DNA of 8,403 bases, taken from IMG/VR virus record IMGVR_UViG_2802429224_000013. One strand, given 5' to 3'. Shown here piece by piece: positions 1,928 to 7,919 of this stretch. Position 1 is the stretch's first letter. Every line of letters starts with the position of its first letter. The translations under genes and the position numbers were made by a program. The notes under the pieces were generated by a model. That model was not told the origin of the DNA, did not search any database, and was given only the letters and a program-made list of their open reading frames with translations. Source of the DNA: a virus (Duplodnaviria > Heunggongvirae > Uroviricota > Caudoviricetes).

Positions 1928-2218
1928 ATGAAAAAGAAAAATTCTGGCTTTACTGCCAGCGGTCTCTCTCGGCCTGAAATCAGACACGGAGATATTTACC
2001 GCGACACCAGACGTGGGGGACGAGTGGTTATTCGTCACGTTACGCCAGGCAATATCACCTACCGCCGTGAGGCTTACGAATATGACTGCGTAATGCCGCG
2101 CCGTCAGTTTGAGCGTGATTTTATTCTGGTTGAAAACAAACAACAGGCAGTGGCAAGACGTGCAGCCACGAATATTAAAAAAATCCGGGCAATGTTGGTT
2201 GCGGGAGGTAAGAAGTGA
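1928..2218 (+). CDS. DUF4222-like small protein (96 aa)
   Basis: Track ORF. AGGAAA lies 8 nt upstream of the start. The pattern GDIYRDTRRGGRVVIRHVTPGNITYRREAYEYDCVMPRRQFERDF resembles DUF4222 proteins common in enterobacterial prophage-like islands. That call is from recall. The stop overlaps the next start (GTGA at 2215-2218). Confidence 0.65.
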   Translation: MKKKNSGFTASGLSRPEIRHGDIYRDTRRGGRVVIRHVTPGNITYRREAYEYDCVMPRRQFERDFILVENKQQAVARRAATNIKKIRAMLVAGGKK

Positions 2219-3627
2219 AAAACGCACCGAATTTAAAATATCAGCCGAAGGATAAATTCACCGAGGTAATCATTTTTGCCGGGACGGACGCTTACTCCCA
2301 TGCTCAACACTGGATTGAAAGCGAAGGACGAAAACACGGCGATAACGTACCACCTGTTTACCTGGGGCCGAAGCAACTGGCAGACCTGGCGAATATCCGC
2401 ATTATTGACGAGAAACGCCGCTTTGCGCGTGTCTATCTCGCGGGGGAGATCGAACCAATCCAGATCAATGCTATCGCTGAAAAACTGGCGCTGGCTGGCG
2501 TACAGGAGGCGAAATTATACAAAGGCATCACCGACCGGGAGCCGGAGAACTGGCGCGATTACCTGCAACGAATCCGCGAACAGCCAGAGCACGAAGAAAT
2601 GCTTACTGACGAGCAATACAGCCAGCGAAAAACCACACTACCAATGAGCATTGGATCGGAAGGATATGATTCACAGCTTAGCTATGTAGTTAAGGGCGTG
2701 ATTCCGGCTAATTCGCTATGTAGCACATACGGTGCGAGCGGTTCTTATAAGTCGTTCCTTGCGTGTTCGTGGGCATGTCATGTTGCTACCGGTATCCCGT
2801 GGGGAGGTCGCAGGGTTGTACATGGTGCGGTTATGTATGTCGTTGGTGAGGGCGGGATCGGTGTTCCTCGTCGTATCAAGGCATGGGAACTGGTGAACAG
2901 TGAGCAGGTGAAAAATCTGTACCTGGTAAATCGTCCAATTTTTCCGGCCGCACCGAGTGATGTTGATGAAATGGTTATTGCTGCCCGACAGGTTGAGCTG
3001 GAAACGGGTAAACCTGTACGCATGATTATTCTGGATACTCTGGCGCGTTGCTTTGGTGGCAGCGATGAAAATGATGCGCGGGATATGGGGGCATTTGTCC
3101 ATGGATGTGACGAACTGAAACGGCGTACAGGCGCTACAGTGCTGGTAATTCACCATTCCGGCAAGGATGAAACAAAGGGTGCGCGCGGTTCCAGTGCGTT
3201 TCGTGCAGCACTGGATGCAGAGTACCGGATACGCCGTGAAGGTGCAGGCAGTGAAGCCCTGGTTATCGCATGTACCAAGATGAAGGATGCGGAGGAACTG
3301 AAAGAAATGGCTTGCGATTTGCGCGAGGTTGAGCTTTTCAAGGATGAAGGCGGGGAGTTAATCACGTCGTTGGTGCTGGAGGATAAACCCCGTCCGCCAG
3401 TTGAACTGGAGCGCATCGAGTACGTTGCTAACAAGACAGAGAATCACGCCGCGCTATGGGGCTGTATCCGTTCACGCACGCAACGCGGAGATAAATGCAC
3501 TATCCCGTTGTTGCGCGATGACATGAAAAAGCTGGGGTATGAGATGAAAAACTTCCGACGCTGGCTGTACAAGCTGGAAGGTGACGGCGTAATCGCTATT
3601 GACGATGATGACGTGCGCCCACTGTAA
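2215..3627 (+). CDS. Replication initiator/helicase-type RecA-fold ATPase (AAA_25/RepA-DnaB-like), 470 aa, with C-terminal winged-helix-like domain
   Basis: This is the longest ORF. It has a GTG start coupled to the upstream stop. The Walker A-like motif is GASGSYKS (nt 2731-2754) and the Walker B-like motif is MIILD (nt 3022-3036). LARCFGGSDENDARDMGAF and VLVIHHSGKD are typical of AAA_25/RepA-type proteins. The basic C-terminal ~70 aa is consistent with a DNA-binding domain. Iterons begin at its stop codon. Confidence 0.88.
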   Translation: MKNAPNLKYQPKDKFTEVIIFAGTDAYSHAQHWIESEGRKHGDNVPPVYLGPKQLADLANIRIIDEKRRFARVYLAGEIEPIQINAIAEKLALAGVQEAKLYKGITDREPENWRDYLQRIREQPEHEEMLTDEQYSQRKTTLPMSIGSEGYDSQLSYVVKGVIPANSLCSTYGASGSYKSFLACSWACHVATGIPWGGRRVVHGAVMYVVGEGGIGVPRRIKAWELVNSEQVKNLYLVNRPIFPAAPSDVDEMVIAARQVELETGKPVRMIILDTLARCFGGSDENDARDMGAFVHGCDELKRRTGATVLVIHHSGKDETKGARGSSAFRAALDAEYRIRREGAGSEALVIACTKMKDAEELKEMACDLREVELFKDEGGELITSLVLEDKPRPPVELERIEYVANKTENHAALWGCIRSRTQRGDKCTIPLLRDDMKKLGYEMKNFRRWLYKLEGDGVIAIDDDDVRPL

Positions 3628-4013
3628 AAAGTGAGGCGTAAAAGTGAGGGGGACAGGGAATATTTAAAAATCACCCCTGTTTCCCTCACTTCTCAACCTG
3701 TATATATACCAAAAAGTGAGGAGTTAATTTTGTACTAAAAAAACAAAGAGTTAAGTGTATTCGCATTTTCTATTTTTGAATATAGGGCAAATAATAAATG
3801 TGAGTAGTAAATGTGAGGAATAGTGAGTAAATAGAATAAATTCTCTGGAAATTACAAACAGGTAAAAAATAAAACAAATAAAGATTTTAACTAAAACTTA
3901 ACTATTTGCCTCATATTTGCGTATATATAGGGGTTTTAAAGTGAATACTTAAAAATACATTTAAAATCATATTGTTATTAACTTCATAAATTCTCACTGT
4001 GTAGCAGGTGAGG
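3626..4013. other. Putative origin of replication: GTGAG(G) iterons flanking an AT-rich core
   Basis: Seen in sequence: AAAAGTGAGG occurs at 3627-3636, 3640-3649 and 3712-3721, with an inverted copy CCTCACTT at 3684-3691. Variants are AAATGTGAGT (3796-3805), AAATGTGAGG (3809-3818), AATAGTGAGT (3819-3828), an inverted CTCAC (3993-3997) and GTGAGG (4008-4013). The clusters flank a very AT-rich stretch (~3829-3992) containing GTATATATA at 3700-3708 and 3921-3929. A 15-bp imperfect inverted repeat spans 3644-3658 and 3675-3689. The origin function is inferred from its position next to the replication gene, as in SaPI/PICI ori. Confidence 0.62.
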
Positions 4014-4038
4014 AATTAAAAAATCAGGAATGTTAAAA

Positions 4039-4812
4039 ATGAAAACAGAACGTTACATACCTCAGGGTATGACTTACATAGAGCGTGAAGAACTGAAAAG
4101 TTTTGCGACATCATGTGGACTACGCGGCGATATTCAGAGCCTTACCAGAACTCTGATAATGATTGCGCACTGGATGAGGCAGGGTAAGCCAGTGAGCTTC
4201 ACAGAATACGCCAGCCAGTGGACAGAGGCACAGCGCGAACGGGACGACGGTAATCACTCAACGCCTGAAATGGCGAAGCAATGGCCTTTCAGTGGCAAAC
4301 GATGCATTTATCCCAGGTGCTCCGATTACTACCCATACGGAACGGAAAGAGAACATCAGGATGACGAAACGGAAATTAAACACGCAGTAACGGTAATTCT
4401 TGCCAAATACCCGTTTTTTAACCGCAATGGTCTTGTTCGGTATAGCCGTGACAAGCCATGGGAGCACCCGCTTGATTATGTCTGTTTTATGGAGGAGGCA
4501 AAAAGCTGTTTGCGCTGGATAAGGGAGAACAATCTTACCGACTGCAAAATTGCATCATTCCCCGGTAAAAATCCGACATCCTACGGCCTGAAACATTGTG
4601 TTGAACGGGCGAATCAAATAAGAGCAAAGGCAAACGGAAAACCCACGGAGCCGACGTATATCACAAACGGTGCTCTAATTGCCGCAATGGTCGCGGCTGG
4701 TTATCAGATAAAGCCTGAAGGAAGGATGAATTGCCGATTCAATATTTCGCGTAAGCAGCTTAAGAGTGTATTGAGCGGGGAATCTTACAAATCAGGAGAG
4801 TGGACGATATAA
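4039..4812 (+). CDS. Hypothetical protein (257 aa), no family recognised
   Basis: Track ORF 4030..4812. The ATG at 4039 is preferred because AGGA (4026-4029) lies 9 nt upstream and abuts the ATG at 4030. It is the first gene after the AT-rich ori region and contains several Cys residues (for example CIYPRC). I cannot assign a domain by eye. Confidence 0.72.
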   Translation: MKTERYIPQGMTYIEREELKSFATSCGLRGDIQSLTRTLIMIAHWMRQGKPVSFTEYASQWTEAQRERDDGNHSTPEMAKQWPFSGKRCIYPRCSDYYPYGTEREHQDDETEIKHAVTVILAKYPFFNRNGLVRYSRDKPWEHPLDYVCFMEEAKSCLRWIRENNLTDCKIASFPGKNPTSYGLKHCVERANQIRAKANGKPTEPTYITNGALIAAMVAAGYQIKPEGRMNCRFNISRKQLKSVLSGESYKSGEWTI

Positions 4813-4835
4813 CAGAAACATCTATGGGGCAAAGC

Positions 4836-5366
4836 ATGACTAAGCTGACCATTAACAGAAAACCAAAAGGCATTTACGGCACGCCGCAGAAAACGACGCA
4901 GGCGGCGCAAGAGCAGGATAAAACCACGTCGGCGCATAAAGTGATGCCCGGTAACCAGAAAGCGCAGCAGAAGCCCACAGGGGCGACACCGTGGCGGCAT
5001 ATGACCAAACGCCAGCGCAAAAACCGCAGGCGCGTTAACCGCCTCACTGAGTTGTGGCCTGACTTATTCAGCCGGGAAGCACCGAAGCCGCTTAAGGTGG
5101 GGATATTCGACGACCTGATGCAGGATCTCGCCGTCAGGGGGCTGGCATTCGGGCCAGGGGCATTGCGTGCGACGCTGGCATCTTATGCGCAGTGTCCGCG
5201 CTATTACCGCGCCTTAATGGCTGGTGGGGTACGCTACGACCTGAAAGGCCAGCCGTGCGGCGAGGTGACACCACAGGAACAACAGGACGCAGAAACGCGG
5301 CTGGTGGCGCTGAATGAGAAGCGCAAACGTCAGCGCCGGGCAGCAAAGGAGAAAACAGGCGCATGA
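4836..5366 (+). CDS. ProQ/FinO-domain RNA-binding protein (RNA chaperone family)
   Basis: Track ORF 4800..5366. The start is uncertain: GTG 4800, ATG 4824 or ATG 4836, with 4836 having GGGG 6 nt upstream. The N-terminus is basic and Gln-rich. The segment LTELWPDLFS..PKPLKVGIFDDLMQD...GALRATLASYAQCPRYYRALMAGGVRYDLKGQPCGEVT matches the ProQ/FinO domain signature as I remember it. Confidence 0.78.
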   Translation: MTKLTINRKPKGIYGTPQKTTQAAQEQDKTTSAHKVMPGNQKAQQKPTGATPWRHMTKRQRKNRRRVNRLTELWPDLFSREAPKPLKVGIFDDLMQDLAVRGLAFGPGALRATLASYAQCPRYYRALMAGGVRYDLKGQPCGEVTPQEQQDAETRLVALNEKRKRQRRAAKEKTGA

Positions 5367-5650
5367 TTCACGACAGCAAAGCGGAAGCACTGGAAGCGCG
5401 TGGTCTGTACCGGAGAGCGGCGGCGCGGTGGGCTGAGGTCATCATGCTGGCGAATGATGACAAGGCACGGGAACAGGCGGCAAAACGTCGCGCGGAATGT
5501 ATCCGCAAGGCAGCACGCCCACCAGCAAGGCAGGATAATTTCGGAGAGATGCGCGAAACCATCAGCCGGGCACATGCCGGGATGGGATTACATCAGCCCA
5601 ATGGTAAGGCATTCAGGAAATACCCTGGATCGAAAAATTGCAGTCAGTGA
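5363..5650 (+). CDS. PerC-family transcriptional regulator-like protein (95 aa)
   Basis: Track ORF. The ATGA overlap with the upstream stop (5363-5366) indicates coupling. The segment KAEALEARGLYRRAAARWAEV...RRAECIRKA...QPNGKAFR matches the PerC/Pch family motif (A..LE..G.YRRAA.RW) as I remember it. Confidence 0.7.
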   Translation: MIHDSKAEALEARGLYRRAAARWAEVIMLANDDKAREQAAKRRAECIRKAARPPARQDNFGEMRETISRAHAGMGLHQPNGKAFRKYPGSKNCSQ

Positions 5651-6025: not shown

Positions 6026-6064
6026 TGGTCGTGATTTTTTGGTGAAAAAAGAGAGGTGGTAAAA

Positions 6065-6649
6065 ATGCCAGCAAGCAAAGAAGATTTGCGATTAAAACTG
6101 ATGGAGGTGGTTAACGCTCTGTCAGAGTCGCAGGGCAGCACTCCGCAGGAGATTATCGAAATTCTGAATGCGATCCCCGCACAGGATTTCACAAAAGCGG
6201 ACGAGGATGACGCGAATAAAAACATCGTCGCGTCAGTCGAAGATGAATCCTCACTGGCAGAAGCCCAGGCTAAAGCGGATTCCGCATACAGCAATATGGG
6301 CCGTCGCGCTCCAGCCCCGTTTGCTGGTGAAAAGTCGATGGATTACCGCAAGCGTGCATTAATTGGTGCACAGAAGCTGGCTAAAAAATTCAGTGATGTG
6401 GATATTCGTTCCGTTTCAGATTCTGCAACGCTGGCGGTGCTGGAAGATCAGATTTACCAGGCTGCAAAAGACAGTGTTCAGTGGGCTGTGGAAAATACGC
6501 CGGGCTATTTGCGTAAAACCGTAAGAATGGATGAAGCCGGACGGCGGATTACTGAATATCAGGGGGATCCGAATAACTGGCTTAGTGCTTTCAAAATCCC
6601 TCCCCGTCGCCTGGTTAAAATTAACGTTGCAAGCCTCGCGGGGGCATGA
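6065..6649 (+). CDS. Hypothetical protein (194 aa), acidic N-terminal half
   Basis: Track ORF 6056..6649. The ATG at 6065 is preferred because GAGAGG (6051-6056) lies 8 nt upstream. No family recognised. It is co-oriented with and close to the flanking genes. Confidence 0.72.
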   Translation: MPASKEDLRLKLMEVVNALSESQGSTPQEIIEILNAIPAQDFTKADEDDANKNIVASVEDESSLAEAQAKADSAYSNMGRRAPAPFAGEKSMDYRKRALIGAQKLAKKFSDVDIRSVSDSATLAVLEDQIYQAAKDSVQWAVENTPGYLRKTVRMDEAGRRITEYQGDPNNWLSAFKIPPRRLVKINVASLAGA

Positions 6650-6713: not shown

Positions 6714-7385
6714 ATGCTTTTAACAGAAATTGAGGCGGCAAAGCAGATTCGGGACGGTCAGCTACCGTCGCCTTATCAGTTTTCCAACATGTGGCTGATT
6801 AACCTGCGTATCACAGGAACCGGAATGGCCTATCGCGCCGAAGAAAAAGAATTTGTCTGGCGTTCACCGCAAACTTATCTCAATCCGCAGTTCCTGGAAC
6901 GTTGCGCCGGAGTACCCGTCATCATCGACCATCCCGAAAGCAAAACCCTTGAAGACGTGGGCGAACGGTCGCGCATTATTGGCACCGTCATGTTGCCGTA
7001 TATTCGCGGTGACGAGGTGTGGGGCGTATGCCGGATTTACGGGCAGGAAATCATCGATTACATCCAGAAAGCCCGGGGGGAGATATCCACCAGCCCGTCG
7101 GTTGTGTTTTGTGGTGCGTCCGGTGGGGCAGAAGTTCCTGATGTAATGGGCGAGGACAATTTTTTTATTGAGGGTACGCCATTTCTTATCGATCACGTTG
7201 CACTCGTACCGTTGGGCGTATGGGATAAGGGCGGGAAACCATCAGGTGTGGAAGTAACAACGCCGACAGAAGAAGAACAGCTCGCCGGAATGGTTCGTGA
7301 AGTTATTGATGCGGCCTGCAAGCCAGCCCTGGAAAAACTGGAAGAAATATCCGGGCGGCTGGCTCAACTGGAAAAAGAAGGGTGA
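6714..7385 (+). CDS. DUF2213-like phage head-assembly (scaffold/protease-like) protein with C-terminal coiled-coil tail, 223 aa
   Basis: Track ORF, with a GGGGG SD before the ATG at 6714. GVPVIIDHPE...IIGTV...GEISTSPSV...FLIDHVALVPLG resembles the DUF2213 pattern (..EHP.., ELS.GY, NHLALV..GRAG) as I remember it. The tail EEEQLAGMVREVIDAACKPALEKLEEISGRLAQLEKEG looks helical or coiled-coil. The family call is uncertain. Confidence 0.7.
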   Translation: MLLTEIEAAKQIRDGQLPSPYQFSNMWLINLRITGTGMAYRAEEKEFVWRSPQTYLNPQFLERCAGVPVIIDHPESKTLEDVGERSRIIGTVMLPYIRGDEVWGVCRIYGQEIIDYIQKARGEISTSPSVVFCGASGGAEVPDVMGEDNFFIEGTPFLIDHVALVPLGVWDKGGKPSGVEVTTPTEEEQLAGMVREVIDAACKPALEKLEEISGRLAQLEKEG

Positions 7386-7391
7386 GTCATA

Positions 7392-7919
7392 ATGCTAATG
7401 AGCAAGGCAGAATATGCCAAACACAAAGGCGTAAGCCGCCAGACAGTTTACGACTGGATCGAGAAAGGCGAAGTGATCATGTCTGGCAAAAAAATTGATG
7501 TGGAGGCGACAGAGCAGCGGAACAGCCCACCGGAACAAGGGAAAGACACCGTTTCTGAAATGTGGCCAGAAAGAACGCTGGAAATGACGTGGGGCGAGTT
7601 CTGGAAAGCAGTTAAGGCCAGAGACGGTAAAGACCCAGCGCCAGTAACTGACGATGATATAGAGCAGCGCGTGCGGAATGCAGCCGAAGAATTAGGCTGG
7701 GAAGTGCAATTTCTTGATGGTGGTGCTATCTGCCTTGAGGATTGCGACGGACAGCATTACTTTGAGCAATACGATTTGCTGGGTAATGCTCGTCTGGCAA
7801 TTCGTATGCTGCGTTGCGAACTCTGCTATGTTGCAGGTGATTATCCCGATGAACTGGAATCATGGAGTGAAGCCGGGCTAAACGCCCTGGCTGAATGGGA
7901 AAAATCAGACCATCAATGA
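7392..7919 (+). CDS. N-terminal HTH DNA-binding protein (MerR/excisionase/Nu1-type HTH), candidate small-terminase-like or Rpp-like packaging factor, 175 aa
   Basis: Track ORF, with an alternative start at ATG 7398. MSKAEYAKHKGVSRQTVYDWIEKGEV matches the HTH_17/Nu1-like helix-turn-helix pattern. The C-terminal ~120 aa is unrecognised. A dense repeat array follows immediately. The packaging role is inferred from context. Confidence 0.7.
   Translation: MLMSKAEYAKHKGVSRQTVYDWIEKGEVIMSGKKIDVEATEQRNSPPEQGKDTVSEMWPERTLEMTWGEFWKAVKARDGKDPAPVTDDDIEQRVRNAAEELGWEVQFLDGGAICLEDCDGQHYFEQYDLLGNARLAIRMLRCELCYVAGDYPDELESWSEAGLNALAEWEKSDHQ

What the first reader, a model, noticed from the sequence alone, without database searches (positions are those of the whole stretch)
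4039..4812. Orphan 257-aa gene in the post-origin cargo position
The gene sits alone between the AT-rich origin and the ProQ/FinO gene. It has its own SD and a visibly AT-rich 5' end. I cannot assign any motif to it: no P-loop, no obvious nuclease, HTH or transmembrane signature, only scattered Cys/His such as CIYPRC and KHC. In P4-like satellites and PICIs, variable slots outside the replication and packaging cores are published hotspots for anti-phage or host-modulating cargo. This makes it a reasonable candidate for an undescribed accessory function.
Basis: inference. Interest (0 to 1): 0.5.

Follow-up and report, generated by a model that had tools for sequence, protein, structure and literature searches.

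The report
Uncharacterised winged-helix gene after satellite origin
This is a real, conserved but unstudied gene of a phage-parasitic island; it encodes a two-part, probably nucleic-acid-binding protein that sits next to the replication genes of many mobile elements and is not a one-off defence cargo.

Summary
The ORF at 4039-4812 is real. It has a Shine-Dalgarno site, about 26 full-length homologue clusters in Enterobacterales, and dN/dS of 0.09-0.17. The window is an E. coli PICI: DUF4222, RepA helicase, iteron origin, this gene, ProQ/FinO, PerC, DUF2213.

The protein is not an orphan. It fuses two unannotated domain families (no hit in Pfam, NCBIfam, PADLOC or PDB). Both are widespread as small stand-alone proteins (906 profile hits).

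Family members lie directly downstream of the replicase in all 19 satellite loci examined, across four replicase classes. An SSB gene often follows. Members also occur in Mu-like early regions, and the C-domain follows DNA polymerase A in environmental phages. Near-identical proteins coexist with unrelated iterons, so the protein does not read iterons.

Within this island's own family the gene is optional. It is usually absent, and it is cleanly deleted or truncated in close relatives.

The best reading (about 0.4) is an auxiliary nucleic-acid-binding factor of mobile-element replication or DNA metabolism. Defence, interference or counter-defence cargo remains possible. The function is untested. 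Interest is moderate.

The parts
4039..4812 (+). Coding sequence of the 257-aa protein, stop codon included
   Evidence: ORF list and sequence. RefSeq annotates the same CDS in a 98.6%-identical island. Homologues. dN/dS 0.09-0.17.
4026..4029 (+). Shine-Dalgarno-like AGGA, 9 nt before ATG 4039
   Evidence: Read directly from the sequence. The alternative ATG at 4030 has no usable spacing.
4039..4350 (+). N-terminal helical domain (aa 1-104; motifs MIAHWMRQ and FTEYAxQW)
   Evidence: Occurs alone as proteins of about 90-115 aa. Helices at 13-29, 32-46, 54-64 and 76-81 in the model, pLDDT above 90. No Pfam hit.
4351..4809 (+). C-terminal domain (aa 105-257), which also occurs alone as proteins of about 120-145 aa; matches PHROG 9576
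   Evidence: PHROG hit E=1.6e-8 over aa 143-248. 82-sequence alignment A2. Model pLDDT 89.7, pTM 0.86. No Pfam hit.
4486..4779 (+). Predicted winged-helix core (aa 150-247; pI 9.8)
4579..4605 (+). Invariant motif S181-Y182-x-x-K185-H186-x-x-E189 at the start of helix 181-199. Its partner, N210-G211, is at 4666-4671.
   Evidence: S, Y, K, H and N are invariant, and E and G at least 90% conserved, across 82 diverse C-domain proteins. The same holds in the full-length family.
3627..4019 (.). AT-rich replication origin with AAAAGTGAGG-type iterons. The last copy (4008-4019) lies about 20 nt before the gene's start codon.
   Evidence: Repeats, enrichment, composition. This organisation matches that described for Gram-negative PICI origins (PMC6092414).
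2215..3627 (+). RepA-type replicative helicase/initiator (AAA_25), the upstream partner in the conserved gene order
   Evidence: Pfam AAA_25 E=5.9e-44. RefSeq name 'helicase RepA family protein'.
4813..4835 (+). Module junction. Homology to islands that lack or have replaced the gene resumes here, just before the ProQ/FinO start at 4836.
   Evidence: BLAST break-points at 4813 (L003, L020, L019), 4824 (L095) and 4805 (L096). Alignment.
4836..5366 (+). ProQ/FinO-family gene, the downstream neighbour (an alternative GTG start at 4800 would overlap the target's stop)
   Evidence: Pfam ProQ E=1.3e-23. RefSeq start equivalent to 4836. ORF list.

Best explanation
The gene encodes a two-domain, basic protein. 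The N-terminal part is a helical module of about 100 aa. The C-terminal part is a module of about 140 aa that ends in a winged helix and carries an invariant S-Y-x-x-K-H...E...N-G surface. I propose that it is an optional auxiliary factor of mobile-element DNA replication or DNA metabolism. In this model the winged-helix domain binds nucleic acid (DNA or replication intermediates) without reading the element's iterons. The N-domain would act as an adaptor to another protein, most plausibly the element's or the host's SSB or replisome, so that the satellite's amplification after induction is boosted or protected.

Shown: the gene is real and under purifying selection; it has two independent domains; a winged-helix fold is predicted; it lies next to replicases and SSB; it is independent of iteron type; it is dispensable in this island family.

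Inferred: nucleic-acid binding, the adaptor role, and any effect on replication.
For: (2) Charge. The winged-helix core has pI 9.8, and stand-alone C-domains have median pI 8.9.
(3) Gene order. In 19 of 19 satellite loci a replicase ends 200-675 nt upstream. The replicase classes are RepA/AAA_25, P4-type Zn_Ribbon_Prim-Toprim_3-DUF5906, 'P4 family primase' and DUF927.
(4) N-only, C-only and N+C versions all occupy this same post-replicase slot.
(5) An SSB gene lies within 300 nt downstream in 14 of 47 loci. Its start overlaps the target's stop by 4 nt in L002, L022 and L023.
(6) In environmental viral contigs, 17 of 43 C-domain genes directly follow a family-A DNA polymerase. Nineteen are followed by a PD-(D/E)XK nuclease, usually with an SNF2 helicase shortly downstream.
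(7) Other contexts include a VapE/PriCT_2 primase and a staphylococcal DUF5906/prim-pol plasmid region.
(8) A full-length member lies between Gam and GemA in a Mu-like early region.
(9) One N-domain protein is fused to an RNAP alpha-CTD-like helix-hairpin-helix domain, a second architecture in which the N-domain is joined to a domain of a DNA-binding type.
(10) dN/dS is 0.09-0.17.

Against: The gene is absent from most islands of this PICI family and is deleted or truncated in close relatives. In EcCICFT073, rep plus ori alone drive replication (PMC6092414). Any replication role is therefore non-essential.

Replication and early modules of phages also house host-takeover and counter-defence genes, so adjacency does not prove a replication function. 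N-domain-only proteins also occur in non-replication slots: after a Mu F-like head gene beside HicAB, and beside a serine recombinase. The environmental loci are largely one phage lineage and are not independent.
Confidence: 0.4

Rival explanations
1. Counter-defence or host-takeover protein. It would be an early-expressed accessory protein that neutralises a host nuclease, nucleoid protein or immune sensor, so that the element's replicating DNA survives.
For: The gene is optional and frequently lost or gained in this island family. A full-length member sits next to Gam, a RecBCD-blocking protein, in a Mu-like semi-essential early region. N-domain-only proteins appear in moron-like slots beside HicAB and recombinases. 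The position between DNA polymerase and exonuclease in environmental podophage-like contigs recalls, from my own knowledge, the T7 gp5.5-5.9 host-inhibitor slot.
Against: The protein is basic (pI 9.0), so it is not a DNA mimic of the Ocr, ArdA or gp5.9 type. No known anti-defence family matches in Pfam or PHROGs. The very tight positional link to replicases of four classes, and the translational coupling to SSB, are not required by this model.
Confidence: 0.22
2. One reading: anti-phage or helper-interference cargo. The protein would block a competing or helper phage, for example by binding phage DNA or a phage replication protein.
For: The slot is variable. In PICIs the genes just after the origin are described as interference genes (PMC6092414). 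A DNA-binding fold could target phage DNA.
Against: There is no PADLOC match. The alternative occupants of the slot in L019 also have none. In the sister island L001 the candidate-defence hit (PDC-S02) lies at the 3' end of the island, not here. The family is encoded by phages themselves (Mu-like and environmental DNA-polymerase modules), which is unexpected for an anti-phage effector. It is a single small protein with no recognisable effector domain.
Confidence: 0.17
3. Transcription factor. The winged helix would bind an operator and control the downstream ProQ-PerC-packaging operon, or autoregulate.
For: The predicted fold is a winged helix, and GntR- and Fur-type regulators are among the structural hits. 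The gene sits at the head of the downstream gene block, with an iteron copy about 20 nt before its start.
Against: Downstream genes differ completely between contexts: ProQ, SSB, ejection proteins, delta-like, PD-(D/E)XK nuclease. Islands with a near-identical ProQ-PerC block lack the gene. No sequence membership in any HTH family was found.
Confidence: 0.1
4. Origin-specific co-initiator or copy-number regulator that binds the island's iterons, that is, a free-standing analogue of the P4 alpha origin-binding domain.
Against: Proteins 77-78% identical coexist with unrelated iterons: AAAAGTGAGG in the window, GTATCCGCCC in L023, ACCTRTACC in L012. Mu-like phages, which replicate by transposition, also carry it. 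Profile-profile comparison with replicase C-termini gives under 1% probability.
Confidence: 0.05

Closest known systems
Winged-helix DNA-binding domains (RFX DBD 1dp7/8zjr, GntR-type 3ihu, Cdc6/ORC and Cdt1 winged-helix domains)
   Different: Sequence identity is 6-13% and no profile hit to any Pfam HTH or winged-helix family exists. There is an extra N-terminal helical extension (aa 105-149) and a distinctive invariant SYxxKH...E...NG motif. The loop between the second and third helices is unusually long, about 10 residues.
Phage P4 alpha origin-binding domain (PDB 1ka8)
   Different: No detectable profile homology to the C-termini of the neighbouring primases or RepA (hhalign probability below 1%). 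There is no covariation with iterons. It is a separate gene, not part of the replicase.
PHROG 9576 (and weakly 17839), phage protein families of unknown function
   Same: The C-domain matches at E=1.6e-8 over aa 143-248.
   Different: The PHROG has no annotated function and covers only the C-domain. The N-domain has no PHROG match.
PICI replication module (pri/rep/ori) and post-origin interference genes, as described for Gram-negative PICIs (PMC6092414)
   Same: Same island architecture. The gene is the first one after the rep-ori unit and is transcribed in the same direction.
   Different: It is not one of the defined module components. Rep plus ori suffice for replication in EcCICFT073. No similarity to described interference proteins was detected with these libraries.
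Semi-essential early-region proteins of Mu-like phages (Gam, GemA neighbours)
   Same: A full-length homologue lies between Gam and GemA in a Salmonella Mu-like prophage. An N-domain protein lies after MuA/MuB/Kil.
   Different: There is no homologue in the 50,697 deposited phage genomes by tblastn, which should include Mu itself, so it corresponds to no named Mu gene.

Membership tests
Winged-helix (wHTH) fold superfamily | Helix-strand-helix-helix-strand-wing-strand topology | tested here: met
Winged-helix (wHTH) fold superfamily | Sequence-profile membership in a curated HTH or winged-helix family | tested here: not met
   No Pfam or NCBIfam hit for the protein. None was shared among the 82 C-domain relatives. 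No PDB sequence or profile hit.
Winged-helix (wHTH) fold superfamily | Binds nucleic acid | not testable with these tools
   Only indirect support: pI 9.8 for the core and median pI 8.9 for stand-alone C-domains.
P4 alpha-type origin-binding domain / iteron-binding initiator | Homology to the replicase origin-binding domain | tested here: not met
P4 alpha-type origin-binding domain / iteron-binding initiator | Specificity covaries with the iteron sequence | tested here: not met
   Proteins 77-78% identical sit beside GTGAGG, GTGGGG or GTATCCGCCC iterons. The family is also present in transposing Mu-like phages.
Known anti-phage defence systems (PADLOC-DB v2) | Match to a defence-protein model | tested here: not met
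   0 families at E<=1.
Known anti-phage defence systems (PADLOC-DB v2) | Located in a variable hotspot whose alternative occupants are defence systems | tested here: inconclusive
   The slot varies, but the alternative occupants in L019 have no PADLOC hit. The PDC-S02 candidate hit is at the island's 3' end in L001.
Core PICI replication module (pri/rep/ori) | Present in all islands of the family | tested here: not met
   Absent from L003, L020, L095 and L096, which carry the same ProQ-PerC block. In contrast it was present in all 10 sampled EcCIMP1-like rows that contain the primase.
Core PICI replication module (pri/rep/ori) | Required for autonomous replication | not tested
   The literature reports that rep+ori of EcCICFT073 suffice (PMC6092414). 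I did not check whether that island carries a homologue.
DNA-mimic anti-restriction / anti-RecBCD proteins (Ocr, ArdA, gp5.9 type) | Strongly acidic, DNA-like surface | tested here: not met
   pI 9.0, with 38 K+R against 30 D+E.
SSB-linked replication/recombination accessory genes | Conserved adjacency or translational coupling with an SSB gene | tested here: met
   SSB lies within 300 nt downstream in 14 of 47 loci, for N-only, C-only and N+C forms. There is a 4-nt stop/start overlap in L002, L022 and L023. The window itself has no SSB.

The most novel reading that the evidence does not exclude
The two unannotated domains define a new accessory factor that is indifferent to replicase type and is shared by phage satellites, Mu-like transposable phages, phage-plasmids and environmental phages. 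It would couple a novel winged-helix nucleic-acid-binding module (SYxxKH...NG) to SSB or the host replisome, or alternatively shield replication intermediates from host nucleases. That would be a previously unrecognised component of how small mobile elements take over or protect DNA synthesis.
Probability: 0.3. Interest if true: 0.6.

Novelty: new variant of a known kind. Interest (0 to 1): 0.4.

Why it matters
PICIs and P4-like satellites are major vehicles of gene transfer and phage interference in Enterobacterales. Their replication modules are usually described as just primase/helicase plus origin. This work shows a conserved, selected but unannotated two-domain protein that follows unrelated replicases. 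A blastn-detectable relative occurs in 203 of 5,426 complete E. coli genomes, and 129 genomes carry the EcCIMP1-type primase-to-homologue segment in full. Its domains recur in Mu-like phages and next to DNA polymerases in environmental phages.

If it proves to be a replication or SSB-linked helper, or a protector of replicating DNA, it would add a new component to satellite biology. It would also give two new domain families a function. If it proves to be interference cargo, it would mark a second hotspot in PICIs. Either way there is now a concrete, testable target, including invariant residues to mutate.

Tried and rejected
- Sequence-family searches of the protein found nothing: Pfam, NCBIfam, PADLOC, PDB by phmmer and by profile. 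PHROGs gave only an unknown-function family.
- Pfam scans of 82 C-domain and 38 N-domain relatives found no shared family. Scans of 20 longer relatives found only one informative fusion, to RNA_pol_A_CTD.
- tblastn against 50,697 deposited phage genomes gave no match.
- tblastn against plasmids gave 6 weak or partial hits. I opened two: a satellite fragment in Klebsiella and a staphylococcal replication region.
- Foldseek against BFVD gave one unnamed hit. The afdb50 library was unavailable.
- A profile search of the 5.8-billion-protein set with the C-domain returned only 'hypothetical protein' entries with no Pfam domain.
- The search for related loci with the diverse domain alignments failed for lack of a conserved stretch. 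I replaced it with a degenerate DNA pattern search.
- I rejected the idea that the protein is a detached copy of the replicase's origin-binding domain, using hhalign. I rejected iteron specificity by comparing iterons.
- A Cys/His metal site is unlikely: C94 and C187 are not conserved, and no Cys is invariant across the C-domain family. The spatial proximity of C89 and C157 was not checked.
- No Rfam RNA is present in the window.
- Literature searches by accession number and in PICI papers found no mention of this gene.
- An apparent link to phage P4 through an 11,624-bp contig turned out to be a coincidence of length.

Full report
WHAT IS THERE. The window is a phage-inducible chromosomal island (PICI) of E. 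coli. Pfam identifies DUF4222 (1928-2218), a RepA-type AAA_25 helicase (2215-3627), ProQ/FinO (4836-5366), PerC (5363-5650), DUF2213 (6714-7385) and a small HTH protein (7392-7919). A 98.6%-identical copy lies at tRNA-Thr in E. coli ARS-C101, between an integrase and 3' cargo. An IMG/VR contig encodes a 99%-identical protein. Between RepA and the finding lies an AT-rich stretch (GC 0.25-0.32) carrying AAAAGTGAGG-type iterons in both orientations. This is the origin organisation described for Gram-negative PICIs (PMC6092414).

THE OBSERVATION. The ORF runs from ATG 4039 to the stop at 4810-4812 (257 aa). AGGA at 4026-4029 gives a 9-nt spacer. The upstream in-frame ATG at 4030 has no usable Shine-Dalgarno site, and RefSeq annotators chose the 257-aa form. 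The gene is real. There are 26 homologue clusters at 39-85% identity in Escherichia, Salmonella, Raoultella, Buttiauxella and Xenorhabdus. Pairwise dN/dS is 0.09-0.17. The strings CIYPRC and KHC exist, but only C89 and H186 are conserved, so they are not metal motifs. No Rfam RNA overlaps the region.

THE PROTEIN. No match was found in Pfam, NCBIfam, PADLOC or PDB, either by single sequence or by profile. The only library hit is PHROG 9576, of unknown function, to aa 143-248. An exhaustive profile search of 1.84 billion representative proteins gave 906 hits. It showed that the protein is a fusion of two independent modules.
- The N-domain (aa ~5-100) is found alone as proteins of about 90-115 aa.
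- The C-domain (aa ~108-246) is found alone as proteins of about 120-145 aa.
Neither domain family has a Pfam model, and all database names are 'hypothetical protein'.

WHERE ITS RELATIVES LIVE. This is the main result. In every satellite locus examined (19 of 19), a replicase gene ends 200-675 nt upstream of the family member. The replicases belong to four classes:
- RepA/AAA_25: the window, L001, and capsid-forming PICIs such as L002.
- P4-type Zn_Ribbon_Prim-Toprim_3-DUF5906: EcCIMP1-like islands L012 and L021, Xenorhabdus L014, Buttiauxella L016, and a P4-like element with epsilon and delta homologues, L024.
- 'P4-family primase': L022 and L010.
- DUF927: L017 and L023.

Full-length, N-only (L010, L022, L038-40) and C-only (L017, L024) versions all occupy this same slot. 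An SSB gene follows within 300 nt in 14 of 47 loci. Its start overlaps the stop of the family member by 4 nt in L002, L022 and L023.

Outside satellites:
- A full-length member lies between Gam and GemA in the early region of a Salmonella Mu-like prophage.
- An N-domain protein lies after MuA/MuB/Kil in metagenomic Mu-like phages.
- A degenerate-pattern search of IMG/VR recovered 43 C-domain genes. Seventeen directly follow a family-A DNA polymerase. Nineteen are followed by a PD-(D/E)XK nuclease, usually with an SNF2 helicase a gene or two further on. Others sit by a VapE/PriCT_2 primase.
- A staphylococcal plasmid has a C-domain gene in its DUF5906/prim-pol region.
- N-domain-only proteins are less consistent. 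One follows a Mu F-like head gene beside HicAB, and one is next to a serine recombinase.
- One N-domain is fused to an RNAP alpha-CTD-like helix-hairpin-helix domain.

IS IT CORE OR CARGO? Both, depending on the lineage. In the EcCIMP1-like family the homologue appears fixed. All 10 sampled rows that contain the primase also contain the gene, and 129 genomes carry the whole segment. EcCIMP1 is a functional PICI (PMC11773190), but I found no discussion of this gene in the sections read.

In the window's own family the gene is optional. Most islands with a near-identical ProQ-PerC block go straight from the origin to ProQ, as in L095 and L096. L003 and L020 keep the RBS and first five codons but have lost 4055-4812. 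L018 and L019 keep 61-66 codons, followed by about 2.7 kb of unrelated DNA that includes a Clp-fold serine protease. All these variants rejoin the window within about 20 nt of 4813, which is a module junction. Only 12 of 5,426 complete E. coli genomes carry at least 80% of this gene at blastn level, although 203 carry a detectable relative.

WHAT IT IS NOT.
- It is not an iteron reader. Proteins 77-78% identical sit beside unrelated iterons (GTGAGG, GTGGGG, GTATCCGCCC, ACCTRTACC), and Mu-like phages have no such origin.
- It is not a detached replicase origin-binding domain (hhalign probability below 1%).
- It is not a DNA mimic (pI 9.0).
- It is not a known defence protein. The alternative slot occupants are not either, and the one candidate-defence hit in the sister island (PDC-S02) is at the 3' end.

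MOST LIKELY MECHANISM. I favour, at about 0.4, an optional auxiliary factor of mobile-element DNA replication or DNA metabolism. In this model a basic winged-helix module binds DNA or replication intermediates without iteron specificity. It is joined to a helical adaptor domain that links to SSB or the replisome, and the protein boosts or protects amplification after induction.

What is shown is the fold prediction, the charge, the gene order, the SSB coupling, the iteron independence and the purifying selection. Binding, partners and any effect on replication are inferred.

The main rivals are:
- an early counter-defence or host-takeover protein (0.22), supported by the Gam neighbourhood, the gene's optional nature and the moron-like N-domain contexts;
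- a transcription factor (0.10);
- an iteron-binding co-initiator (0.05).

COMPARISON AND NOVELTY. At fold level the protein resembles winged-helix DNA-binding domains, including replication-linked ones. It fails every sequence-based membership test, and it fails the two tests specific to origin-binding domains. Neither domain has been described or named in any library or paper I could search. I rate it a new variant of a known kind: a winged-helix accessory protein of mobile-element replication or early modules, with a new N-domain and a new motif. It is of moderate interest. It is not a surprise to a specialist, but it is a well-defined, widespread and testable unknown.

Noticed in passing
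L019:5434-8170 (also L018); the equivalent slot in the window is 4222-4812: In some sister islands the target gene is cut after about 61-66 codons. It is replaced by about 2.7 kb carrying a fragment resembling a primase/helicase, two small ORFs, an 'SDH family Clp fold serine proteinase' (298 aa) and a transposase remnant. None of these matches PADLOC.
   Followed up: partly
L001:14450-15517 (sister island, beyond the window's 3' end): A 355-aa protein at the 3' end of the sister island matches the PADLOC candidate defence family PDC-S02 (E=3e-10). This fits the known 3' cargo hotspot of PICIs better than the post-origin slot does.
   Followed up: no
L012:7634-7736 and 8745-8840: In EcCIMP1-like islands, 10 of the 11 ACCTRTACC iterons in 16 kb fall in two clusters. 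These bracket the cassette formed by a 76-aa ORF plus the target homologue, so there the gene lies inside a bipartite origin. In the window all iterons are upstream of the gene.
   Followed up: partly
window 2215-2610 (RepA aa 1-132): The first ~130 residues of the AAA_25 RepA helicase are 48% identical to the N-terminus of the DUF927 replicase of L023. They are also similar to the N-terminus of a 'DNA primase family protein' (L020). Otherwise different replicases therefore share an N-terminal module of unknown role.
   Followed up: partly
window 6056-6649: RefSeq calls the orthologue a 'NUDIX hydrolase', but the window's protein has no Pfam NUDIX hit (only a sub-threshold Aminotran_4 match) and no PADLOC hit. 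The annotation looks doubtful.
   Followed up: no
window 4800-4836: The ProQ/FinO ORF can start at GTG 4800, overlapping the target's stop codon, or at ATG 4836, the RefSeq choice. Homology to islands lacking the target resumes at 4805-4824, so the junction of the two modules lies inside this ambiguity.
   Followed up: partly
L003:8438-8490 and L020:5251-5303: Islands that lost the gene retain its RBS, its ATG and five codons. This creates a 16-codon mini-ORF (MKTECCVSAVGQRSNQ) just before ProQ.
   Followed up: no
window 3642-3691: A 24-nt-arm inverted repeat (79% complementary, 2-nt loop) built from iteron sequences lies just after the RepA stop. It could be a terminator-like hairpin or part of the origin.
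   Followed up: no
L006:5698-6675 (Raoultella); protein P0026: This is a degraded copy of the family. The N-domain is fused in frame to an Rz-like i-spanin N-terminus, and the rest is broken into overlapping frames. It is probably a pseudogene remnant in a prophage.
   Followed up: no
L012:7781-8011, L004:5777-5992, L008, L009: A conserved ORF of about 73-76 aa with no Pfam hit always sits between the P4-type primase and the target homologue. It overlaps the homologue's start by 11 nt in L012 and may be a partner protein.
   Followed up: no
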